Positions 1,963 to 22,920 of a stretch of 45,103 bases of DNA are shown here, piece by piece; the first letter of the stretch is position 1; each line of letters starts with the position of its first letter. The notes under the pieces were generated by a model that searched no databases, was not told the origin of the DNA, and worked only from the letters and a program-made list of their open reading frames with translations. Made by a program: the position numbers and the translations under genes. Source of the DNA: a virus (taxonomy: Duplodnaviria; Heunggongvirae; Uroviricota; Caudoviricetes); the IMG/VR virus record IMGVR_UViG_2734482790_000002; one strand, written 5' to 3'.

Positions 1963-4434
1963 TTAAAAATCAGCCTGACTCGGGATCAGTTTTTGCCAGA
2001 TAGCTGAAACGTATTTTGCCTGGTAACGGGCGTCATCAAGTGCATTGTGGCGCTCACCTTCGAATGGAATATCCGTTCTGGCATCGAAGTCTATGGCTTT
2101 CCCCAGCTCAACGATTGTGCGTACATCGCGATCGTTGTAGTAACGCCACGGGCAGGGGATCCCCTGCCGTTCGTATGAACGGCGCAAAATCGTGTTGTCG
2201 AAGTTGGCTCCATTTCCCCAGACCTGAACAAAAAATTCACCGGAGTTTTCGTCGATAAATTCCCGCAATTGTAACAGTGCATCATCTAACGGGATTTCAT
2301 CGGTCATAATGGCAGATTGCGCTTCGCGTGATTGCTTAAGCCACCATTTAATGGTGTCCCGATCAATGACTCCGCCAGCAGTTTCCAGATCGATAGTCTT
2401 ACTAAATTCCGGTCCCATATCTCCGGTTTGCGGATCGAAAAATATTGCACCTATTGAGATAATCGGGGCATCAGGATTTTTTCCCATGGTTTCAAGGTCG
2501 ATCATTAGATGGTCACACGTCCTGCTGGTGGATGCGATAACGTGATGACCGTTCACCGTAATTAAGGGATCTGCCGTCTCGCCAGTTTCACTATCGCTGG
2601 CGTGATCCTGAGCGCTGCCAGCATTCTCCTTGTGTGGATGTTCAGCGCCTTCCATTTTCTCCGAATCGTCTTCCTGAACTTCAACCTGGTTCTTGTCATC
2701 GAATGTTTCCTGGTATGTTGCGTCGCCCATCACTGCACCACAATCAGGGCAGTTGCCGCCACCGCTTTGACCGCAGGCGGTGCAGATCTTTTCCGGTTCC
2801 TGTTGCACTACTGGTTCAGGTTGTTTCGTTTCTGGCTCGTTTTGTTGCGTATTTGGGCTGTTTTGTTCCGCTTTCTGGTCGTTCTGTTCCGTTTCTTGCT
2901 GGTTCTGGTTCACAGAATCGCGGGTTTCAATCCCCTTCACCCATTTCGGATCATTCGGATCGCTAATCCCTGCAACAAATTCACCACGTGATACTGCAAG
3001 CAGTTCATCGGCGTCAGGCTGGCTGATATTGGCTGCCTGCATAATTTTGTTTACTTCGTCAGCGGTAACTTTTACCGGCCCTGGTTGTGCGGTCGTGTCA
3101 GATGCACCAGTATTTTGTTGTGAACCTGAGTATGTACCGTTTTTGCGGGCGAAATATTCTTCTTTCGTGATTTCAGTAGCCCCGGCAGCCAGTGCCTTAT
3201 CCAGACCAGAAAGTTTGTTTGCGCGACCGTATTTTTCGCCATCCTTGTCGGTGAAGAGGAAGTAGAACGGCCCCTCACGCTCTACAGATGGTTCGACTTC
3301 CACTTTGCATTCGGTTTTTTCGTTGTCCGGAATTGCCGTTTCCACTGCATCAGTTTCTGGTACTGGCGACGAGAGAGTATCAGTTGCGCTCTGATTTCTT
3401 CCTTCATCTTCAAACACGCCCTTTGTAGTCAGGTATTCAGTAATGTATTTGTTCAGTGCTACTGGATCTTTGTGAATGTCGATCGGACGCTCACGGACAA
3501 GGCCAAAAATAGTCTGACGGTCGTAGCGAACGGCATCGGGTTGTTTGCGCATTGATGCGGAAATGCGCTTCCAGTCTTCGCGATCTTTGTCGATAACTTC
3601 ATTTTTTGCCCAGCGATGGATGCTGCCGTCAATGTTTCCGGCATTAATATCGCCAGGCCACAGAGCGTAGGCCAGTTCTTCATCCAGCGTTTTCCATGTC
3701 TGCTTGTATTCGCGATGAGTGGCAGCAATGACCGGGTTGATTTTTCCTGTTGAATTTTCAGTGTTCTGTTGATTGGCTCTGGCGCGGGCGAGATCAACAA
3801 CAGACGTGTATTTTCCGGTTTCCTTGCGTTCACCTTCGCGACGTTTTTTCCAGATGCGCATCTCTGCCTGAATTTCGGGCCATTTGGCACCAGGCTTACA
3901 TTTATGCTTAACCCACCCGATGGCATGCAGCTTAAGCTCCGGATACATGGCGTTAACTTCTGGCATTTTCATCAATGCTTCAACGATATGTCCGTCGAAT
4001 GTTGCCATGTCTTCCTGCAACAATTCCTGTGCGCTAATCACCATATCAACGGTGATGTTTTCACATGTGTCGAACTTAACCATGACAGCGTTCTGTACTT
4101 CAGGGGCCAGCTTGTCAAAAGTGACGTTCATCGGATCGGATTCAGTCTCAACCGGTACAAAGGAAGCAGACTCCTCATCCCAGCGGTTTTCCTGCATATA
4201 TTCAGCATCCCAGGAATCGAGGGCAGGGCGGGGTATACCGGGTTTATCCTCGCAAACAAGAAATTTATAAGCGCAGTCCTGAGCAGCCGGATAATGTTCC
4301 AGGAATTGCCAGTGAAATTTTGCGCGGGCGCGACGTTCATCACCGGCTTCAATGGCAGTGGCTACAGCGACTGCACCTTCTTCCTTTATTGCCTGTTCGT
4401 CCGGAATGGCGGCGCAAATAAAGACTTTACTCAT
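1963..4434 (-). CDS. large exonuclease with C-terminal DnaQ-like (DEDDh) 3'-5' exonuclease domain; exodeoxyribonuclease VIII-like prophage protein
   Basis: 823 aa; C-terminal MIDLETMG...NGANFD...HNALDDA motifs of DEDD exonucleases; acidic, low-complexity central region with a CTACGQSGGGNCPDCG zinc ribbon; sits at the exo position of the leftward early operon. Confidence 0.6.
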   Translation of the reverse strand: MSKVFICAAIPDEQAIKEEGAVAVATAIEAGDERRARAKFHWQFLEHYPAAQDCAYKFLVCEDKPGIPRPALDSWDAEYMQENRWDEESASFVPVETESDPMNVTFDKLAPEVQNAVMVKFDTCENITVDMVISAQELLQEDMATFDGHIVEALMKMPEVNAMYPELKLHAIGWVKHKCKPGAKWPEIQAEMRIWKKRREGERKETGKYTSVVDLARARANQQNTENSTGKINPVIAATHREYKQTWKTLDEELAYALWPGDINAGNIDGSIHRWAKNEVIDKDREDWKRISASMRKQPDAVRYDRQTIFGLVRERPIDIHKDPVALNKYITEYLTTKGVFEDEGRNQSATDTLSSPVPETDAVETAIPDNEKTECKVEVEPSVEREGPFYFLFTDKDGEKYGRANKLSGLDKALAAGATEITKEEYFARKNGTYSGSQQNTGASDTTAQPGPVKVTADEVNKIMQAANISQPDADELLAVSRGEFVAGISDPNDPKWVKGIETRDSVNQNQQETEQNDQKAEQNSPNTQQNEPETKQPEPVVQQEPEKICTACGQSGGGNCPDCGAVMGDATYQETFDDKNQVEVQEDDSEKMEGAEHPHKENAGSAQDHASDSETGETADPLITVNGHHVIASTSRTCDHLMIDLETMGKNPDAPIISIGAIFFDPQTGDMGPEFSKTIDLETAGGVIDRDTIKWWLKQSREAQSAIMTDEIPLDDALLQLREFIDENSGEFFVQVWGNGANFDNTILRRSYERQGIPCPWRYYNDRDVRTIVELGKAIDFDARTDIPFEGERHNALDDARYQAKYVSAIWQKLIPSQADF

Positions 4435-4526
4435 TTTGTTTTACCTCATTACAGATTTAAGGGTGAACAAATCCCTGCCATTGCTGGCATATAAAAATGA
4501 AACCGGATATTTATTACGGTGCTGGT

Positions 4527-4718
4527 TTAAAGCCCTGCCGGGACTTCGTTATTATCCATGCGAATAACTTTATCGACCGGATAACAGTTACCGGGAATTT
4601 TCTGTTCCGCTGCGGCAGCCATGCATTCTTTCATTGAGCCGTATACGCCAGTAACCATGTCAACCGGTTCACCGGAAACAAGAAAAACCGTCAGAACAAG
4701 TGCAAATGTGGTATTCAT
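4527..4718 (-). CDS. small secreted or membrane protein (63 aa from the internal Met)
   Basis: N-terminal signal-like segment MNTTFALVLTVFLVSG; its ATG overlaps the upstream stop as ATGA (translational coupling). Confidence 0.45.
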   Translation of the reverse strand: MNTTFALVLTVFLVSGEPVDMVTGVYGSMKECMAAAAEQKIPGNCYPVDKVIRMDNNEVPAGL

Positions 4719-4903
4719 TGCCAGTATCCTTTTTGAGTCGGACGTAAACGGGCCAGCATAGAAAGAATGCAAATTTGATTTAATAACTCCCGTTCGTGTT
4801 TTCTCTTATTAATGGCATCTTCAGTAAATACAGGGTTACTGATTCTGACACCAATTTCAAAACAACCTTCAGACGTATTAACGTTTGGTAATAACGTTTC
4901 CAT
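4715..4903 (-). CDS. small hypothetical protein (62 aa), first gene of the leftward early operon
   Basis: ORF coupled to the downstream small gene; central basic/amphipathic stretch KRKHERELLNQICILSML; function unknown. Confidence 0.4.
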   Translation of the reverse strand: METLLPNVNTSEGCFEIGVRISNPVFTEDAINKRKHERELLNQICILSMLARLRPTQKGYWQ

Positions 4904-4920
4904 TATCGCGTCCTCAACAA

Positions 4921-5080
4921 TGAATTTTGTGATGCGGTGCCTGGTGCCTCCAGGTGACGTTAACCAGTTAACAATTAACGCCGGATACAGGGAAACCCAT
5001 AAACACCCGATACGGGGGAACTAATCGCTTTTTAACTGTTCCGCGTGCGCTCAGCCGCATTCACCGCATCACAAAATTCA
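4921..5080. repeat. perfect 19-bp inverted repeat pair (tgaattttgtgatgcggtg / caccgcatcacaaaattca) flanking ~122 bp that carries three TTAAC motifs
   Basis: exact reverse complementarity between 4921-4939 and 5062-5080; internal gttaaccagttaacaattaacg. Confidence 0.8.
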
Positions 5081-5381
5081 CTTTAAAAAGGGCGGACATC
5101 AGCCAGCAATGAAACTGATGCCGCCAAAGGTACAAATCAACATGGAGTGTTGTAGCGGGGTTGTCACTCAGGCGTATGGTCAACCTGACAACCCGGTGCT
5201 ACCAGTGGGGGTAAGGATAACCCCGCCATACTTACCGCCGCGCCATTTCGCGGAGTGCCACAACCGGAAGCGCACGGTCGAAGATACCGGCGACACGCAA
5301 CAGAGGGAGAAATGACTTCGCCGTGCGCTTTCGTGTTGTGTGCCTGCTTTTAACCACGTCAGGCGAGGTGGTTCCTGTCAT

Positions 5382-5425
5382 TCCCCAACGACAAGAAATC
5401 TGTATAATCTGGATATCCCCAACGA
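5382..5425 (+). promoter_or_regulatory. candidate sigma70 promoter (perfect -10 TATAAT with TG just upstream) flanked by direct repeats tccccaacga
   Basis: tgTATAAT at about 5401-5408; 10-bp direct repeats at about 5382-5391 and 5416-5425; good SD (aaggaa) and ATG at 5440 follow; the -35 is weak. Confidence 0.5.
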
Positions 5426-5439
5426 TCCAAGGAAATCAT

Positions 5440-5586
5440 ATGACAGAGCAAAGAGCACAAGCAGGTGGTGGCAATTCGACACATAAAACAGTCTGGGATC
5501 ACATACCAGAGAAAAACATTCGACCAAAACCATCTCCAGCTCCTTCGGAGGAGAGGGGGAACAGCAACAACCAAACAAGCAGGTGA
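5440..5586 (+). CDS. small hypothetical protein (48 aa), first gene of a rightward cassette
   Basis: ATG preceded by aaggaa SD; its stop overlaps the SD of the next gene; no recognisable motif. Confidence 0.35.
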   Translation: MTEQRAQAGGGNSTHKTVWDHIPEKNIRPKPSPAPSEERGNSNNQTSR

Positions 5587-18399: not shown

Positions 18400-18476
18400 G
18401 CGGGTATCGTATAATGGCCATTACCTCAGCTTTCCAGGCTGATGATGTGGGTTCGATTCCCGCCACCCGCTCTCCA
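18400..18476 (+). tRNA. tRNA-Gly(UCC)-like gene, possibly degenerate at the 3' end
   Basis: cloverleaf: acceptor gcgggta, D-arm gtat-aatggcca-ttac, anticodon arm tcagc-ttTCCag-gctga, T-arm gtggg-ttcgatt-cccgc; near-identical to E. coli glyT as I recall it; A7:C66 mismatch and 3' tail tCTCCA rather than CCA. Confidence 0.6.
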
Positions 18477-18908
18477 GTAAAACTGATGAGTCATAGCTTT
18501 ATTATCAGCACTGGCGAATTTTCGTGAAGAACAGACCTGGCAGGTGGATTTGTTGTTTTTCATTCTGTAGACCTGACCGCCTACAGTTTCAGTGCTTTTT
18601 TTTGTAGTCATCCCTGCATGTTGCAGGGATGAGGTGATACCAGAATGCGTCGTTGTCTGTTTCCGGGCCTACGATTTGCCAGTTTGCACAGCAGGCTGAC
18701 GGCGCATTCTTATAACATCTATACAAGTAAACTCTGTTTCATCATTACATTGCGTTAGCCCGCCTTATGTGTGGGCATTTTTTTTACCTATGCATATGGC
18801 TCGCTGCGGCGGGCCTTTTTCATATCCGCGCCACGCCTGGCGCACATCACATCAGATAGCGCCACACAAAAGGTATCTGCGGGTGCCTTTGACGGGGTGT
18901 TTTTTTAC

Positions 18909-18932
18909 GGGCCGACAGAGGCCCTTTTTTAT
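18909..18932 (+). terminator. Rho-independent terminator just upstream of the lysis cassette
   Basis: gggcc-gacaga-ggccc hairpin followed by a T-run. Confidence 0.6.
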
Positions 18933-18949: not shown

Positions 18950-19339
18950 ATGTCTGAACCCTTGTCCGGTTCCGGCACGGCTGCGGCGCTCGGCGGGGCG
19001 ACGGTATTCGGGCTGTTTACCGGGACGGATTTCGGGATTGTGTTTGGCGCGTTTGCCGGGGCGTTGTTTGTGGCCACGATGCCACAGGTGATTTCTGTCT
19101 GGCGTGTGGCGGCGCATTTTCTGGTGTCGTTCATTGTTGGCGTGCTGGGGGCGGATGTCCTTGCGTCCTGGCTGGTCGAAAAATTGAATCTCCACAGCAC
19201 ATCTCTCGACGCGCTTTGTGCGGTACTGGTATCGGTGGTGTCGGTGAAGATTCTCTCATTCATCCACCAGCAGGATATCGCATCGCTGGTATCCGGGCTG
19301 TTCTCCCGTCTGCGGGGTGGAGGCGGTAATGTTAAGTAA
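18950..19339 (+). CDS. holin-like membrane protein
   Basis: 129 aa; SD aggag; multiple TM segments; first gene of the lysis cassette. Confidence 0.5.
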   Translation: MSEPLSGSGTAAALGGATVFGLFTGTDFGIVFGAFAGALFVATMPQVISVWRVAAHFLVSFIVGVLGADVLASWLVEKLNLHSTSLDALCAVLVSVVSVKILSFIHQQDIASLVSGLFSRLRGGGGNVK

Positions 19340-19607
19340 CCTTCCCGGATTACTGAATGTGGTGTTAAGCTCGGTTATCGTGCTGACGCTCTTTTTTTAT
19401 CGTCGCGGTGAGTCGAGATATAAACCGCTGATGTCGTGGCTGGCCTGGCTGTTGATGCTGCTTTATGCTTTTGCACCGCTTTGTTATCTGTGTGGTCGCT
19501 TCCCACCAGGTAACTGGCTGGTTGTCCTGATTAACTTGGTGTTCTGCGTGCTGGTGATACGAGCACGCGGGAACGTATCAAAAATCCTTGTATTACGAAG
19601 GCGCTGA
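19329..19607 (+). CDS. second holin-like or antiholin-like small membrane protein
   Basis: 92 aa from the Met with ggagg SD; 2-3 TM segments; directly upstream of the endolysin. Confidence 0.5.
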   Translation: MLSNLPGLLNVVLSSVIVLTLFFYRRGESRYKPLMSWLAWLLMLLYAFAPLCYLCGRFPPGNWLVVLINLVFCVLVIRARGNVSKILVLRRR

Positions 19608-19608
19608 T

Positions 19609-20154
19609 ATGAAGTCGAAAGATGAAATTTTTGACGAAATTCTGGGAAAAGAGGGCGGTTACATCAATCATCCGGATGATAAAGGTGGACCGACCAGATG
19701 GGGCATTACTGAAAAAGTTGCCCGCGCACACGGTTATCATGGCGATATGCGTGACCTGACGCGTGAGCAGGCGCTGGAAATACTCGAGGCGGACTACTGG
19801 TACGGACCACGATTCGACCTGGTTGCGAACCTGTCTCCGGATATTGCCTCAGAGTTGTGCGATACGGGCGTGAACATGGGGCCAACTGTGGCGTCCAGAA
19901 TGCTTCAACGCTGGCTGAACGTTTTCAACCTGCGCGGGAAACTCTATCCGGATATGGATGCTGATGGACGCATCGGGCCGCGTACTCTTAATGCATTACG
20001 GGCATATCTGAAAAATCGCAGCAGGGATGGTGAACTGGTACTGGTGAAAGCCCTGAACTGTACGCAGGGCGAGCGTTATCTGGAGCTGGCAGAGAAACGC
20101 GAGGCCAATGAGTCGTTTGTCTATGGCTGGATGAAAGAGCGCGTGGCTGTGTGA
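19609..20154 (+). CDS. endolysin, GH108-type muramidase with peptidoglycan-binding domain
   Basis: 181 aa; EGGYINHPDDKGGPTRWGIT motif typical of GH108; C-terminal region resembles a PG-binding domain. Confidence 0.75.
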   Translation: MKSKDEIFDEILGKEGGYINHPDDKGGPTRWGITEKVARAHGYHGDMRDLTREQALEILEADYWYGPRFDLVANLSPDIASELCDTGVNMGPTVASRMLQRWLNVFNLRGKLYPDMDADGRIGPRTLNALRAYLKNRSRDGELVLVKALNCTQGERYLELAEKREANESFVYGWMKERVAV

Positions 20155-20243: not shown

Positions 20244-20450
20244 ATGAAGTACTATGTTCACACTCTTACAGATAATCAGAACGATCATGAGGTTCATACA
20301 GAAACATGTTTTCGACTTCCTGATGCAAACAATCGTAAAGAGCTTGGAGAGTTTAGCTCATGTGAGCCGGCAGTGAAGGCCGCAAAAAATCTGGGTTACA
20401 CGAGGGTGAATGGATGTTACTGGTGCTGCAGAGATTGCCATACATCCTGA
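20244..20450 (+). CDS. small Cys-rich hypothetical protein (69 aa)
   Basis: aaggag SD; NGCYWCCRDCH cluster; own terminator. Confidence 0.45.
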   Translation: MKYYVHTLTDNQNDHEVHTETCFRLPDANNRKELGEFSSCEPAVKAAKNLGYTRVNGCYWCCRDCHTS

Positions 20451-20474
20451 CATAAGGTGTGAATAATTCTGACA

Positions 20475-20498
20475 AAGGTCGCTTCGGCGGCCTTTTTT
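20475..20498 (+). terminator. Rho-independent terminator
   Basis: aaggtcgc-ttcg-gcggcctt hairpin followed by a T-run. Confidence 0.65.
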
Positions 20499-20529
20499 AT
20501 TACTCAAAAACGAAAGAACGGAGGTACGT

Positions 20530-20811
20530 ATGTACGCACTCAAGAAAATCACGGTAACAGAAGACGGTCGTCATGTTGAGGAAGTGCATGTCCTGGGGGA
20601 TATGTACCGCCTGGAGTTCTATCCGCGTAACACTCATCTTGCAGCGAAGATTGAGTATTGCCGGGACGGGAATATTCCGTGCATTCCTGTAGAAAAAGAG
20701 GATGAAGCCTACATCATCACACTGAACGGTGACACGGCGCGTTGTATCTGTCGTGGCGACAGTGAAGCCCGGAATGAAATAGCAAGATGTCGCGCCCATA
20801 CAGATAAATAA
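20530..20811 (+). CDS. hypothetical protein (93 aa)
   Basis: ggagg SD; own terminator. Confidence 0.5.
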   Translation: MYALKKITVTEDGRHVEEVHVLGDMYRLEFYPRNTHLAAKIEYCRDGNIPCIPVEKEDEAYIITLNGDTARCICRGDSEARNEIARCRAHTDK

Positions 20812-20816
20812 AAAGC

Positions 20817-20850
20817 AAAAACCCCGGCTGCGGGAACAGTTCGGGGTTTT
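20817..20850 (+). terminator. Rho-independent terminator
   Basis: aaaaccccg...cggggtttt hairpin followed by T-rich sequence. Confidence 0.6.
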
Positions 20851-20882
20851 CTGTTTCTGACCTTGAGTAAGCAAGGGAGAAC

Positions 20883-21065
20883 ATGGAGAAGTATAAACGA
20901 ATTCTGTTTAGGTTGACTATGAAAAACGGCCTTGAATTGAAAGCGCCTGTAACTGATGACATCAGCAGAGCGGTGGCTTTTGCCATTAAGTGGGTGGCTG
21001 TCGGTATCGCTGTGTCTCCGATTCTGTATGGGATGGCAAAATTGATCATTGCTGTGAAATCGTAA
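20883..21065 (+). CDS. small membrane protein (60 aa)
   Basis: agggag SD; C-terminal TM segment VAFAIKWVAVGIAVSPILYGMAKLIIAV. Confidence 0.45.
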   Translation: MEKYKRILFRLTMKNGLELKAPVTDDISRAVAFAIKWVAVGIAVSPILYGMAKLIIAVKS

Positions 21066-21082
21066 GTGGGGCAGGGGTAAAT

Positions 21083-21217
21083 ATGTCAGATAGCATTATA
21101 AAACTGGCGCGAATTCTCTGTGTGGCTGTTGGCCTTTCATTTTCAGCAATGTTGGTTGCCATTTTCATTTCCACCGCCTGGCGAGTATTGAGCTTATCCG
21201 GATTGATTGGTGGATAG
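21083..21217 (+). CDS. small membrane peptide (44 aa)
   Basis: internal Met with SD; TM segment LARILCVAVGLSFSAMLVAIFIS. Confidence 0.4.
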   Translation: MSDSIIKLARILCVAVGLSFSAMLVAIFISTAWRVLSLSGLIGG

Positions 21218-21221
21218 TGAG

Positions 21222-21404
21222 ATGAAGCGAAAACACTGGACACACAGAATGCCGCGAACGGCGGCGAAATGGGCACTGGTAGCGATACTGGTGCCTTTTT
21301 TCCTGGTGGGATGCGTCAGCCTGGATAAGGCGCGCCAGCTTTTCGATACGGCTTCTCAGGTCTGCGAAATTGTCGACGGTGTTCGACAGTGTCTGCAGAG
21401 CTGA
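21222..21404 (+). CDS. small lipoprotein (lipobox LVGC), mature part about 30 aa with three Cys
   Basis: signal peptide WALVAILVPFFLVGC; start at the internal Met. Confidence 0.45.
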   Translation: MKRKHWTHRMPRTAAKWALVAILVPFFLVGCVSLDKARQLFDTASQVCEIVDGVRQCLQS

Positions 21405-21577
21405 TCGCCCGTAAGAGCAGAATATTTCGCTGAAAAATGAAGGATGCGCCAGCGTCCAGAAAGCATGAAATTCTGCTGTGTGTGCCAATTTGTCTTATAC
21501 ATTCTGAATCTTGCCGCATCAGGATGAACTTTGAACAACAGCCCGGGCGGCAAGGGGCATTTTTATCCGGAGGGGAT

Positions 21578-21802
21578 ATGAAGAGATTACTGGTAACCGT
21601 AAAGCCCTTTAACGGAACGATTCCATTCAGGGTTTTGCAGCGTGGACGTGTTCTGGTTAAGGATATCTTCAGTGGTAAATGCACGGAATGTTATTCCCGG
21701 ACATATGAAGTGGATGCCACGGATGAAGAAATTTCTGTTGAATGTGATCTTAACGCGAATATGGCGGAGATTGTAACAGCCACGTTGTTACCTGTTTCAT
21801 GA
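21578..21802 (+). CDS. hypothetical protein (74 aa)
   Basis: internal Met with ggagggg SD. Confidence 0.4.
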   Translation: MKRLLVTVKPFNGTIPFRVLQRGRVLVKDIFSGKCTECYSRTYEVDATDEEISVECDLNANMAEIVTATLLPVS

Positions 21803-21842
21803 ATGACATAGAATGTCTCCGGGTACCCAAAAGGAGAAAACT

Positions 21843-22058
21843 ATGTTTGTAGAAAATAACCTGAAGGCCGATCCTGATAATCAGGGATGGGTTCTGGGTT
21901 GGGCTGTAGTACGTGACAAACCCTGGCATCTGGTCGGTATTTATGCAACGGAGGATGGCGCAAAGTCTAAACGCTCTGAATTGAATGGGGAGTATGAAGT
22001 TCGTTATGGTTCCCATCGTTTAGGTAGTGATGATTTTATGTCTGTCGGACTTAGCTAA
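21843..22058 (+). CDS. hypothetical protein (71 aa)
   Basis: aaggag SD; own terminator. Confidence 0.45.
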   Translation: MFVENNLKADPDNQGWVLGWAVVRDKPWHLVGIYATEDGAKSKRSELNGEYEVRYGSHRLGSDDFMSVGLS

Positions 22059-22080
22059 CTGGCTGTGATGCCTGTTTGTA

Positions 22081-22105
22081 GCCCCGCAAATGCGGGGCTT
22101 TTTTA
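22081..22105 (+). terminator. Rho-independent terminator
   Basis: gccccgca-aa-tgcggggc hairpin followed by T6. Confidence 0.7.
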
Positions 22106-22114
22106 TATCTGGAG

Positions 22115-22513
22115 ATGATGATGGAAAAAACAGAAAACAAACCTGTTGCAATTGGTGCTGATGCTGCTCCGTTTAAGTTTGAGTTGTCTCAACTGGTGGA
22201 GATGCGCATCAGTGATGAATGGGGTGAGGTTAAAGCCCGCGCGCAGTATGCGGATGGCGAAAACCAGTACTTGATCCACTACAAGGCTGCAGATGGTCGC
22301 GCCACGACGCAGTGGTTTGGTGAGTCAATGCTGGAAGCAACAGAAGATGATCGCCATCCGGGCTGTCCGGTATTTGCCGGTATGAAATTACCGGAAGGTG
22401 CAGTTGAACTGCAGCCGGGTGAGGTGTTCGTAATGTCAGAAGTCATTGATGGTAAACCGCAGTATTCGCGTATTGAAATGAATAGTAAGAGTGCTCGCCT
22501 GATTCGTGAGTAA
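22115..22513 (+). CDS. hypothetical soluble protein (132 aa)
   Basis: ggag SD; followed by a perfect 14-bp inverted-repeat hairpin. Confidence 0.5.
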   Translation: MMMEKTENKPVAIGADAAPFKFELSQLVEMRISDEWGEVKARAQYADGENQYLIHYKAADGRATTQWFGESMLEATEDDRHPGCPVFAGMKLPEGAVELQPGEVFVMSEVIDGKPQYSRIEMNSKSARLIRE

Positions 22514-22560
22514 CAGGCATTACAGCAGCCCTTCACTCTAAGGGGCTGCTGTAATGTGAG

Positions 22561-22593
22561 AAATAAAAAACCGGTCCAGCTACACAGAACCGG
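22561..22593 (-). terminator. candidate minus-strand intrinsic terminator (weak)
   Basis: on the minus strand, a ccggt...accgg hairpin is followed by ttttttattt. Confidence 0.35.
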
Positions 22594-22686
22594 CCGGCGA
22601 AGACCGCCAATACCACCCATGCATTGATGCAACATACTAATGACAATAGCCGCTATTGATGTAAATGCAATGTTATGCATCGACGA

Positions 22687-22728
22687 AAATAAAAAACCGG
22701 CAGGGGAAATCCATTGAAGACTTGCCGG
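22687..22728 (-). terminator. candidate minus-strand intrinsic terminator, second copy of the same tail motif
   Basis: on the minus strand, a ccggcaag...cctgccgg hairpin is followed by ttttttattt; shares aaataaaaaaccgg with the first copy. Confidence 0.4.
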
Positions 22729-22900
22729 TGGCAAAAGTTGCCAATGCTTTTATAACCGTAGTCACAGAGTTACGAAGTGCAACACCGAATGCTGCTGGTA
22801 TATGGATGAATGGCGTTTCAATGATTTTCATCAATTTATTCATCAGCAATGGTGATAATCACTCTCATTTGTGCGGGTCCTTCCGGTGGGGGGGCCTGCC

Positions 22901-22920
22901 ACGGGGCGGCAGCGGCGCGG
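22901..22920. other. cos site (cosN-like cohesive-end region)
   Basis: ACGGGGCGGCAGCGGCGCGG closely resembles the lambda cosN sequence as I recall it (ACGGGGCGGCGACCTCGCGGG); lies about 170 bp upstream of the Nu1-like terminase gene. Confidence 0.6.

What the first reader, a model, noticed from the sequence alone, without database searches (positions are those of the whole stretch)
20244..22556. Seven small genes, several with their own terminators, between endolysin and cos; no recognisable spanin
After the endolysin, where lambda has Rz/Rz1 and bor, there are seven small ORFs (44-132 aa) with individual ribosome-binding sites, four intrinsic terminators and a strong terminal hairpin. They include a Cys-rich 69-aa protein, two tiny membrane peptides and a 3-Cys lipoprotein with lipobox LVGC. 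None looks like a canonical i-spanin (TM plus periplasmic coiled coil of about 150 aa). Either lysis uses a non-canonical spanin (the lipoprotein plus a small TM protein) or this is a stack of independently acquired morons (toxins, anti-defence or exclusion factors).
Basis: partly seen in the sequence, partly recalled or inferred. Interest (0 to 1): 0.6.

Follow-up and report, generated by a model that had tools for sequence, protein, structure and literature searches.

The report
Lone lysis lipoprotein among shuffling genes
Behind the cell-wall-degrading enzyme of this E. coli prophage sit eight small genes, and only one of them, a tiny outer-membrane lipoprotein, is always kept there and has no inner-membrane partner, so it may be a new, simpler way for a phage to break the outer membrane, while the other seven are interchangeable cargo of unknown function.

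Summary
The + strand carries eight small ORFs, not seven, each with a Shine-Dalgarno-like motif. Terminators follow O1, O2 and O7, a 17-bp hairpin follows O8, and none of the ORFs matches a spanin family.

Comparison of about 160 related loci splits the region in two.

1. The 60-aa lipoprotein O5 (21222-21404) is the only constant gene after the endolysin. It is present in 156 of 156 viral loci, and none of them has an i-spanin. It keeps this position behind three holin and three endolysin combinations, and it directly abuts the endolysin in 28 of 75 loci. It is under purifying selection, and it is decayed only where a canonical Rz is present. A 2018 census listed its phiP27 homologue as an "o-spanin", but the paired "i-spanin" is a doubtful antisense ORF that is absent here. 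I read O5 as a partner-less outer-membrane disruptor that may work like a colicin lysis protein. This is untested.

2. O1-O4 and O6-O8 come and go as independent modules, giving at least 45 architectures. Their functions remain unknown.

An unexpected extra is a terminator-like hairpin inside O5's signal-peptide codons, conserved nearly base for base.

The parts
18950..19339 (+). holin 1 (Phage_holin_8, phrog_198)
   Evidence: Pfam E 3.5e-22; PHROG holin
19329..19607 (+). holin 2 (3-TM, Phage_holin_3_7)
   Evidence: Pfam E 8.5e-21
19609..20154 (+). endolysin (Glyco_hydro_108 + PG_binding_3)
   Evidence: Pfam. An M15 peptidase or an NlpC/P60-like hydrolase replaces it in relatives
20244..20450 (+). 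O1: 68-aa Cys/His-rich protein, a mobile module that sits before O2 here and after O5 in other phages
   Evidence: phrog_4298, unknown function. AF2 pLDDT 82.5 with no fold match. Position varies
20474..20503 (+). intrinsic terminator after O1
   Evidence: -14.7 kcal/mol, z -2.8
20530..20811 (+). O2: 93-aa protein, optional module
   Evidence: phrog_33497, unknown function. pN/pS 0.19. Present in 18 of 156 loci
20813..20856 (+). terminator after O2. A terminator-like site also reads on the minus strand
   Evidence: -20.7 kcal/mol, z -2.9
20883..21065 (+). O3: 60-aa tail-anchored membrane protein, an optional lysis-cassette resident
   Evidence: phrog_1115. TM scan. Also lies between R and Rz in PhiR12_3 and GER2
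21083..21217 (+). O4: 44-aa membrane peptide that travels with O3
   Evidence: phrog_4906. pN/pS 0.19. Present in 25 of 156 loci
21222..21404 (+). O5: 60-aa prolipoprotein (lipobox LVGC, Val at +2, mature 30 aa with Cys1/Cys18/Cys27). It is the conserved fourth gene of the lysis cassette
   Evidence: phrog_7528. The phiP27 homologue is listed as an o-spanin in PMC6139136
21271..21301 (+). terminator-like hairpin (11 bp, GCGA loop) plus T6 inside the signal-peptide codons of O5
   Evidence: -21.6 kcal/mol, z -4.0. Conserved in 35 sequence variants and in the pseudogenes
21405..21577 (+). 174-nt spacer that stays with O5 whenever O6 or O8 follows
   Evidence: Its fold is not better than shuffles
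21578..21802 (+). O6: 74-aa protein, moves together with O7
   Evidence: phrog_2571, partial match. pN/pS 0.03. O6-O7-O8 block
21843..22058 (+). O7: 71-aa protein with a promoter-like site upstream (21785-21814) and its own terminator
22080..22105 (+). intrinsic terminator after O7
22121..22513 (+). O8: 130-aa protein with a conserved ~95-aa core and a variable C-terminus. It is the commonest neighbour downstream of O5
   Evidence: phrog_1935.. The AF2 model is unusable
22517..22557 (+). 17-bp terminal hairpin without a U-tract
   Evidence: -29.2 kcal/mol, z -6.3
22673..22831 (-). small minus-strand gene (52 aa) with its own terminator at 22571-22593, just before cos
   Evidence: PGAP call.

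Best explanation
The stretch is the tail end of the Q-dependent late-operon lysis cassette of a phiP27-like lambdoid prophage. It holds two kinds of gene.

(1) O5 is the conserved fourth lysis gene. It is made as a 60-aa prolipoprotein, lipidated at Cys31 and sorted to the outer membrane, because residue +2 is Val/Ala and not Asp. The mature part is a 30-residue amphipathic helix with two further conserved cysteines. I infer that it destabilises the outer membrane after holin and endolysin have acted. It would take the place of Rz/Rz1 without an inner-membrane partner and so without a periplasm-spanning fusion complex. The nearest working model is a colicin lysis protein: a roughly 28-aa mature outer-membrane lipoprotein whose signal peptide is itself active. 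O5's unusually conserved signal peptide may likewise contribute. The conserved hairpin plus T6 inside its 5' codons would act as a terminator that limits O5 expression to Q-modified late transcription.

(2) O1, O2, O3-O4, O6-O7 and O8 are separately exchangeable accessory modules. Several are bracketed by terminators. Their function is unknown. O3-O4 are small inner-membrane proteins that live in lysis cassettes of two unrelated types and may tune lysis.

What is shown: anatomy, conservation, synteny, the lack of a partner gene, and the nucleotide-level conservation of the hairpin.

What is inferred: outer-membrane localisation, a role in lysis, the mechanism, and the terminator function.

Sub-confidences: O5 belongs to the lysis cassette 0.85; O5 disrupts the outer membrane 0.5; the mechanism is like a colicin lysis protein 0.25.
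For: Constancy of O5.
- O5 is present in 156 of 156 IMG/VR loci, and Rz-type or mEp390-type i-spanins are found in 0 of 156.
- De novo ORF clustering of 64 loci finds only holin 1, holin 2, an endolysin (M15 in 37, GH108 in 27) and O5 as conserved + strand genes.
- O5 follows the endolysin directly in 28 of 75 loci, among at least 45 different architectures.

Position independent of the cassette type.
- An exhaustive profile search of 1.84 billion clusters finds only 23 clusters.
- The divergent members again sit immediately after the endolysin, behind other holins (phrog_126, or phrog_198 plus phrog_217) and other endolysins (M15, GH108, NlpC/P60-like), with no membrane-protein gene beside them.
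- In distant holin 1/holin 2 cassettes (mEp390, HK639), the same slot holds a small i-spanin/o-spanin pair.

Selection.
- pN/pS is 0.19 over 54 distinct sequences with no stops.
- The mature length is fixed at 30 aa, and Cys1/18/27 and the lipobox are near-invariant.
- Synonymous codons at Arg3 show that the 60-aa form is the one translated.

Relation to Rz.
- The only co-occurrence with a canonical Rz is a frameshifted, stop-containing O5 remnant (GER2 and O104:H4-type prophages, 43 E. coli genomes).

Abundance.
- O5 is in 354 and the holin pair in 403 of 5426 complete E. coli genomes.

No partner elsewhere.
- No i-spanin-like ORF exists anywhere in the window.

Hairpin.
- It is stable and kept in all 35 variants.
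- Third-codon-position identity between subfamilies is 0.53-0.82 across the hairpin codons against 0.04-0.33 in the mature part.

Colicin lysis protein properties come from PMC2896534.
Against: - There is no experimental evidence for O5 anywhere. PHROG lists the family as unknown function.
- O5 has no sequence similarity to colicin lysis proteins: Pfam gives no hit at all.
- The mature peptide is not cationic. Its net charge ranges from -4 to +3 across the family, so it is unlike the phiKT disruptin.
- Thirty residues cannot span the periplasm, so if membrane fusion is required, a partner must exist that I did not recognise.
- The loci were retrieved by searching for O5. 'Always present' is therefore a statement about its neighbours, not about all such cassettes. 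Rac-SA53 has the same holins and endolysin but carries LT-IIa toxin genes in place of O5.
- Covariation in the hairpin is minimal because it is almost invariant. Constraint on the signal peptide at the protein level cannot be fully separated from constraint at the RNA level.
Confidence: 0.5

Rival explanations
1. O5 is the o-spanin of a true two-component spanin. Its inner-membrane partner is unrecognised: O4 or O3 where present, the 3-TM holin 2, the uncleaved prolipoprotein itself, or a host protein.
For: - Kongari et al. catalogued the phiP27 homologue as a separated o-spanin.
- It has an OM-type lipobox and two periplasmic Cys, as in Rz1.
- O4 ends 4 nt before O5 in this window.
- O5 occupies the spanin slot.
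Against: - The phiP27 'i-spanin' is a TTG ORF antisense to a PHROG-supported gene, has no PHROG match, and is absent from this window and most loci.
- O3 and O4 are missing from most O5 loci and co-occur with Rz elsewhere.
- O4 has only about 11 residues beyond its TM segment, and O3 has two.
- The divergent O5 genes follow a different holin family, so holin 2 is not a constant partner.
- Holin 2's loop cysteines are not conserved in the Salmonella homologue.
Confidence: 0.12
2. O5 is not the outer-membrane-breaking effector. It is a late-expressed lipoprotein with another job: lysis timing or inhibition, protection of progeny from adsorbing to debris, superinfection exclusion, or a lysogenic-conversion factor such as Bor, Cor or Llp.
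For: - Small phage lipoproteins with disulfides often serve exclusion, for example T5 Llp and phi80 Cor (general knowledge).
- No functional data exist for O5.
- Spanin-less lysis is tolerated in shaken cultures (PMC6139136 background).
Against: - O5 is linked to the lysis module, not to tail or receptor-binding genes. It occurs with at least two unrelated packaging modules (HNH/P27-type and GpA-type terminases).
- It has no room for a promoter of its own where it abuts the endolysin (15-nt gap), and the terminator inside its 5' end argues against expression in the lysogen.
- It decays where Rz is present.
- It has no similarity to Bor, Cor or Llp families in Pfam, NCBIfam or PHROG.
Confidence: 0.2
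3. The whole stretch, O5 included, is a pile of unrelated morons, and these phages simply lack an outer-membrane step.
For: - Every ORF is 'hypothetical'.
- Terminators sit between the genes.
- The region is extremely mosaic.
- About 13-15% of phages have no identifiable spanin (PMC6139136; bioRxiv 10.1101/515445).
Against: - O5 does not behave like the others. It is invariant in presence and position across at least 45 architectures and three cassette types.
Confidence: 0.1
4. The conserved object is the terminator hairpin, and the O5 reading frame around it is incidental.
For: - The hairpin plus T-run is the best-conserved part and survives in the pseudogenes.
Against: - The mature part has saturated synonymous sites, yet it keeps its 30-aa length, its three Cys and its amphipathic pattern. 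pN/pS is 0.19.
- The start codon and lipobox are invariant.
Confidence: 0.03

Closest known systems
Two-component spanin o-subunit (lambda Rz1). Specifically the 'PhiP27 separated o-spanin' singleton of Kongari et al. 2018 (PMC6139136)
   Same: O5 is a small outer-membrane prolipoprotein encoded at the end of the lysis cassette, with periplasmic cysteines. The phiP27 entry (record 20706-20861) is a 95%-identical homologue of O5.
   Different: - There is no i-spanin gene embedded in it, overlapping it or beside it.
- The mature part is 30 aa, helical and free of proline, whereas Rz1 is Pro-rich.
- It has no sequence relation to any named spanin family.
- Synonymous codon evidence places the true start 9 codons upstream of the census call.
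Colicin lysis proteins / bacteriocin release proteins (Pfam Lysis_col; e.g. ColE7 Cel, PMC2896534)
   Same: - The precursor is a prolipoprotein and the mature lipopeptide is about 28-33 aa.
- Both are sorted to the outer membrane by Lol and act without an inner-membrane partner.
- Both are lethal if over-expressed, and the signal peptide is itself bioactive.
- A transcription terminator is placed at the start of the lysis gene to limit expression.
   Different: - No sequence similarity (no Pfam hit).
- O5 is encoded in a phage late operon, not an SOS colicin operon.
- O5 has two extra conserved Cys and a 30-aa signal peptide with a long basic n-region.
- Dependence on PldA is untested.
phiKT gp28 'disruptin' (bioRxiv 10.1101/515445)
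   Same: It is a single small amphipathic-helical peptide that replaces spanins for outer-membrane disruption in a spanin-less phage.
   Different: gp28 is cationic and has no signal peptide or lipid anchor. O5 is a lipoprotein with net charge about -1.
Unimolecular spanin (T1 gp11)
   Same: A single gene with an N-terminal lipoprotein signal.
   Different: O5 has no C-terminal transmembrane domain and is far too short (60 aa against about 130 aa).
LambdaSo Lcc6 (bioRxiv 10.1101/2024.01.23.576932), as an analogue for O3/O4
   Same: A transmembrane protein of about 65 aa encoded in a lysis region and needed at the holin step.
   Different: O3 and O4 are optional in these cassettes.

Membership tests
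Two-component spanin (o-spanin) | Outer-membrane lipoprotein signal: lipobox with Cys, and no Asp at +2 | tested here: met
   LVGC with Val/Ala at +2 in all homologues
Two-component spanin (o-spanin) | Cognate i-spanin gene (N-in/C-out TM plus periplasmic coiled coil) that is embedding, overlapping or adjacent | tested here: not met
   No such ORF in the window or in the related loci. Known i-spanin families are found in 0 of 156 loci. The PHROG positive control worked.
Two-component spanin (o-spanin) | Combined periplasmic domains long enough to bridge the inner and outer membranes | tested here: not met
   The mature part of O5 is 30 aa and has no partner. The census value of 62 aa for phiP27 was already the shortest of all phages.
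Two-component spanin (o-spanin) | Periplasmic Cys available for intermolecular disulfides | tested here: inconclusive
   Cys18 and Cys27 are near-invariant. Whether they bond within or between molecules is unknown.
Two-component spanin (o-spanin) | Sequence membership of a described spanin family | tested here: not met
   O5 hits only phrog_7528, 'unknown function'. It is a singleton in PMC6139136.
Two-component spanin (o-spanin) | Complements the lambda Rz/Rz1 lysis defect | not testable with these tools
   Requires an experiment
Unimolecular spanin (T1 gp11 type) | N-terminal lipobox and C-terminal transmembrane domain in one chain | tested here: not met
   There is no hydrophobic segment after the lipobox
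Colicin lysis protein / BRP (Pfam Lysis_col) | Sequence match to the family | tested here: not met
   No Pfam hit at E <= 0.1
Colicin lysis protein / BRP (Pfam Lysis_col) | Small prolipoprotein with a mature peptide of about 28-33 aa, outer-membrane targeted and partner-less | tested here: met
   Family properties are taken from PMC2896534.
Colicin lysis protein / BRP (Pfam Lysis_col) | Acts through the outer-membrane phospholipase A, and has a stable toxic signal peptide | not testable with these tools
   The only hint is the unusual conservation of the signal peptide
Disruptin (phiKT gp28) | Cationic amphipathic peptide without an export signal | tested here: not met
   Net charge is -1, with a family range of -4 to +3. 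O5 has a signal peptide and a lipobox. The amphipathic moment of 0.53 was reached by 77 of 2000 shuffles.
Moron (O1, O2, O7 and the other optional ORFs) | Variable presence between otherwise related phages | tested here: met
   At least 45 architectures. O1 is in 18, O2 in 18, O6 in 17, O7 in 13 and O8 in 63 of 156 loci.
Moron (O1, O2, O7 and the other optional ORFs) | Own terminator | tested here: met
   Met for O1, O2 and O7. O8 has only a hairpin without a U-tract.
Moron (O1, O2, O7 and the other optional ORFs) | Own promoter, with expression from the prophage | tested here: inconclusive
   Only one + strand sigma-70-like site, 21785-21814, lies before O7. Promoter-like sites are not above chance: 3 found against 6.6 expected. 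No expression data are available.
Exclusion or conversion lipoproteins (Bor, Cor, Llp) | Sequence match, or linkage to tail or receptor-binding genes | tested here: not met
   No family hits. O5 is linked to the lysis module across different virion modules.

The most novel reading that the evidence does not exclude
O5 defines a third class of phage outer-membrane disruptor, alongside spanins and disruptins. It would be a single 30-residue outer-membrane lipopeptide, possibly acting together with its conserved and perhaps stable signal peptide. It would work like a colicin lysis protein, need no inner-membrane partner, and be gated to Q-antiterminated late transcription by a terminator embedded in its own signal-peptide codons.
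Probability: 0.35. Interest if true: 0.8.

Novelty: new variant of a known kind. Interest (0 to 1): 0.6.

Why it matters
How the roughly 13-15% of Gram-negative phages without recognisable spanins breach the outer membrane is an open question. Only one alternative, the phiKT disruptin, is known.

This cassette offers a candidate second alternative in the most tractable host. It sits in about 6.5% of complete E. coli genomes, including the Stx2e and Stx2k converting phages phiP27 and phiSTEC1575. A standard lambda Rz/Rz1 complementation assay can test it directly.

The work also has a practical consequence for annotation. It corrects a census entry, because the phiP27 'i-spanin' is probably not a gene. 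It also gives a name to a gene that annotation pipelines often skip or truncate.

If the intragenic terminator is functional, it would be an unusual example of a regulatory RNA structure written into signal-peptide codons.

Tried and rejected
Family and structure searches that found nothing.
- Pfam, NCBIfam and PADLOC gave no hit for O1-O8 or for the minus-strand ORF.
- PDB sequence searches with O8, O1 and O2 gave nothing below E = 0.8.
- Rfam over 18.1-23.2 kb found only the tRNA above threshold.
- The AF2 model of O8, built from a 26-sequence alignment, was unusable (pLDDT 44), so no fold search was run on it.
- The afdb50 library was unavailable.

Searches with thin returns.
- The genome-contig scan with O5 returned a single Salmonella locus.
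- The viral-contig scan with the distant member P0341 returned nothing.
- Source names for all nine proteins are 'hypothetical'.

Ideas considered and dropped.
- The 174-nt spacer after O5 as a structured RNA: its fold is not better than shuffles (z -0.6).
- O3 or O4 as i-spanin: their topology and optional presence rule it out.
- An i-spanin elsewhere in the window, as in T4: the only N-terminal-TM ORFs of 60-200 aa lie in the early and immunity regions.
- Holin 2's loop cysteines as a disulfide partner: they are not conserved in the Salmonella homologue.
- O5 as a plasmid or colicin-operon gene: there are only 4 plasmid hits, and those whose neighbouring features were examined sit in phage-type context.
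- A first regex attempt to collect hairpin variants failed and was replaced by a blastn-short search.


Full report
WHAT IS THERE

The window is an E. coli lambdoid prophage. It is related in parts to phiP27, phiSTEC1575-Stx2k and cdtI. Its lysis cassette has three recognisable genes.
- A Phage_holin_8 holin at 18950-19339.
- A 3-TM Phage_holin_3_7 holin at 19329-19607.
- A GH108 + PG_binding_3 endolysin at 19609-20154.

Eight + strand ORFs lie between the endolysin and cos, not seven. cos is near 22904, where the Tritos and cdtI records begin.
- O1 20244-20450, 68 aa, six Cys.
- O2 20530-20811, 93 aa.
- O3 20883-21065, 60 aa, C-terminal TM segment.
- O4 21083-21217, 44 aa, TM segment.
- O5 21222-21404, 60 aa, lipobox LVGC.
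- O6 21578-21802, 74 aa.
- O7 21843-22058, 71 aa.
- O8 22121-22513, 130 aa.

PGAP calls O2-O8 and a 52-aa minus-strand ORF (22673-22831), but not O1. Each ORF has a Shine-Dalgarno-like motif.

Hairpins with U-runs follow O1, O2 and O7. A 17-bp hairpin without a U-run follows O8. A fourth terminator-like hairpin lies inside O5. All eight ORFs are under purifying selection in relatives, with pN/pS between 0.03 and 0.49; O1 rests on only two sequence variants. The observation therefore stands with two corrections: the ORF count, and the position of the fourth terminator.

NO KNOWN FAMILY

Pfam, NCBIfam and PADLOC give nothing for O1-O8. Every ORF falls into a PHROG of unknown function. Every public copy is named 'hypothetical'. 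The mEp390 i-spanin scored 4e-35 against the PHROG 'Rz-like spanin' family in the same kind of search, so a spanin would have been detected.

THE LIPOPROTEIN IS DIFFERENT FROM THE REST

I fetched 80 viral-contig loci encoding close O5 homologues and mapped the neighbours.
- The 75 loci that reach the endolysin show at least 45 different gene orders between the endolysin and the terminase.
- O1 sits before O2, after O5, or between O2 and O5.
- O2 and O3 are each optional. O4 occurs only with O3.
- O6 and O7 travel together.
- O8 is often the only downstream gene.
- O5 is always present, and in 28 of 75 loci it follows the endolysin directly. In E. coli GPEC79 the gap is 15 nt.

De novo clustering of all ORFs in 64 loci with full flanks gave only four conserved + strand genes: holin 1 (62 loci), holin 2 (62), an endolysin (M15 in 37, GH108 in 27) and O5 (64).

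Across 156 viral loci, none has a lambda/Stx-type Rz or an mEp390-type i-spanin. Some of these loci overlap between the two searches.

In complete E. coli genomes, O5 is found in 354 of 5426 and the holin pair in 403 of 5426.

O5 has pN/pS 0.19 over 54 distinct sequences with no stops. Its mature part is fixed at 30 residues. Cys1, Cys18 and Cys27 are near-invariant, there is no proline, and residue +2 is Val or Ala, which predicts outer-membrane sorting.

THE SLOT, NOT THE HOLIN, IS WHAT IS CONSERVED

An exhaustive profile search of 1.84 billion cluster representatives found only 23 clusters. They include a divergent subfamily that keeps the three Cys. Its genes again lie immediately after the endolysin. 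The cassettes differ, however.
- Some use a different holin (phrog_126).
- Others use a phrog_198 plus phrog_217 pair.
- The endolysin is an M15, GH108 or NlpC/P60-like enzyme.
- No membrane-protein gene lies beside any of them.

In distantly related holin 1/holin 2 cassettes (mEp390, HK639), the same slot is filled by a 91-aa i-spanin and a roughly 50-aa o-spanin.

The only places where an O5 sequence coexists with a canonical Rz are Stx-type prophages: GER2 and the O104:H4 type, in 43 genomes. There O5 carries a frameshift and two in-frame stops.

O5 is also independent of the virion module. It occurs with the HNH/P27-type and with the GpA-type terminases. That argues against a receptor-blocking role.

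PRIOR KNOWLEDGE

Kongari et al. 2018 (PMC6139136) listed phiP27 as having a 'separated' spanin pair with the shortest periplasmic length of all 677 phages, 62 residues. Both subunits were singletons.

Their supplement places the o-spanin at 20706-20861. This is the O5 homologue, started nine codons late. It places the i-spanin at 20348-20542.

That i-spanin is doubtful for three reasons.
- It is a TTG ORF antisense to a 90-aa gene that matches phrog_36812.
- It has no PHROG match of its own.
- It is absent from this window and from most O5 loci.

Synonymous variation at Arg3 (CGA, AGA, CGG, CGT) shows that the 60-aa form is the one translated.

Pinto et al. 2021 (PMC8136144) found Rz in 277 of 279 Stx phages. 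The two exceptions were the Stx2e (P27-type) phages. I found no experimental work on O5.

MECHANISM

What is shown:
- O5 is a partner-less small prolipoprotein.
- It is fixed in the spanin position of several cassette types.
- It is selected as a protein.
- It is dispensable where Rz exists.

What is inferred: O5 performs the outer-membrane step.

A 30-residue peptide cannot bridge the periplasm, so the spanin fusion model does not apply as such. The nearest working analogue is a colicin lysis protein. These are prolipoproteins with a mature peptide of about 28 aa. They are sorted by Lol to the outer membrane, activate phospholipase A, are lethal when over-expressed, and have a toxic signal peptide. 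A terminator sits at the start of the gene (PMC2896534). O5 is not a sequence member of that family.

The phiKT disruptin (bioRxiv 10.1101/515445) shows that a single peptide can replace spanins. That peptide is cationic and has no lipid anchor, whereas O5 has net charge about -1.

AN UNEXPECTED ELEMENT

The signal-peptide half of O5 is more conserved than the mature half. It contains a stable hairpin at 21271-21296: 11 bp, a GCGA loop, -21.6 kcal/mol, z -4.0. A T6 run follows it.
- All 35 sequence variants in hand keep it.
- Between subfamilies, third-codon-position identity is 0.53-0.82 across these codons. It is 0.04-0.33 in the mature part and about 0.23 in the 60 nt upstream.
- The hairpin and T-run survive in the pseudogenised copies.

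This points to a nucleic-acid-level function. The most plausible one is an intrinsic terminator that lets O5 be made only from Q-modified transcripts. Protein-level constraint on the signal peptide cannot be excluded.

THE OTHER ORFS

- O3 and O4 are small inner-membrane proteins. They also lie between R and Rz in PhiR12_3 and GER2. They are therefore lysis-cassette residents but not spanin subunits. LambdaSo Lcc6 is a possible analogue.
- O1 folds confidently into a small alpha/beta domain with conserved Cys and His, but has no structural relatives.
- O8 has a conserved core of about 95 aa and a variable tail. Its AF2 model failed.
- O2, O6 and O7 remain blank.
- Only O7 has a promoter-like site upstream, and promoter-like sites are not above chance. 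'Moron' is therefore supported by variable presence and by terminators, not by promoters.

VERDICT

The notable item is O5. It is a candidate partner-less outer-membrane lysis lipoprotein with an embedded terminator. It is common in E. coli prophages, was mislabelled in the one census that noticed it, and can be tested directly by lambda Rz/Rz1 complementation.

Noticed in passing
window 21271-21301 (inside O5): A terminator-like hairpin plus T6 lies in the signal-peptide codons. It is conserved nearly base for base, synonymous sites included, across subfamilies whose mature domains have diverged to saturation. It is also retained in pseudogenised copies.
   Followed up: partly
window 22673-22831 (minus strand); terminator 22571-22593: A small minus-strand gene (52 aa, no family match) with its own terminator lies just before cos. 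It is present in many related loci (pN/pS 0.30) and is transcribed against the late operon.
   Followed up: partly
L090 3501-3668 (phage GER2); L169 3500-3684 (E. coli FDAARGOS_403, same remnant as in O104:H4 2011C-3493): Stx2-type prophages with S/R/Rz carry a decayed O5 copy downstream of Rz and a minus-strand phosphatase-like gene. The copy has a 1-nt insertion and two in-frame stops, and is found in 43 complete E. coli genomes.
   Followed up: yes
L001 4240-4434 (phiP27 record 20348-20542): The ORF listed as the phiP27 i-spanin in the 2018 spanin census is antisense to a 90-aa gene that matches phrog_36812. It has no family match of its own and is probably not a gene.
   Followed up: yes
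L089 (Rac-SA53) 4416-5556; L001 (phiP27) 1394-2629: Toxin operons flank this cassette type. The LT-IIa genes occupy the post-endolysin slot where O5 normally sits, and stx2e lies just upstream of holin 1.
   Followed up: no
window 18400-18471 and 18758-18924: A tRNA-Gly gene is followed by three consecutive terminator-like hairpins immediately upstream of holin 1.
   Followed up: no
window 21405-21577: This 174-nt non-coding spacer stays attached to O5 whenever O6 or O8 follows, so the next gene always starts 357 nt after the O5 start. It is missing when an HNH gene or the 62-aa gene follows. Its predicted fold is no better than shuffles.
   Followed up: partly
phage record PP818812.1 (Actinobacillus phage vB_Apl-pPE4), 18.2-20.6 kb: A phage attributed to Actinobacillus pleuropneumoniae carries an E. 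coli-type copy of this cassette, with O5 93% identical. That is odd for the stated host.
   Followed up: no
window 20244-20450 (O1): O1 gives a confident AF2 model (beta-beta-beta-alpha-beta) with invariant Cys22, Cys40, Cys58, Cys61 and Cys65 and conserved His residues (invariant His18; near-invariant His15 and His66), which suggests a metal site. It has no relatives among solved or viral predicted structures.
   Followed up: partly
window 20883-21217 (O3-O4); L003 3579-3871: The O3-O4 pair of small membrane proteins occupies the same place, between the endolysin and the outer-membrane-step gene, in two unrelated lysis cassette types: S/R/Rz and holin 1/holin 2/endolysin/O5.
   Followed up: partly
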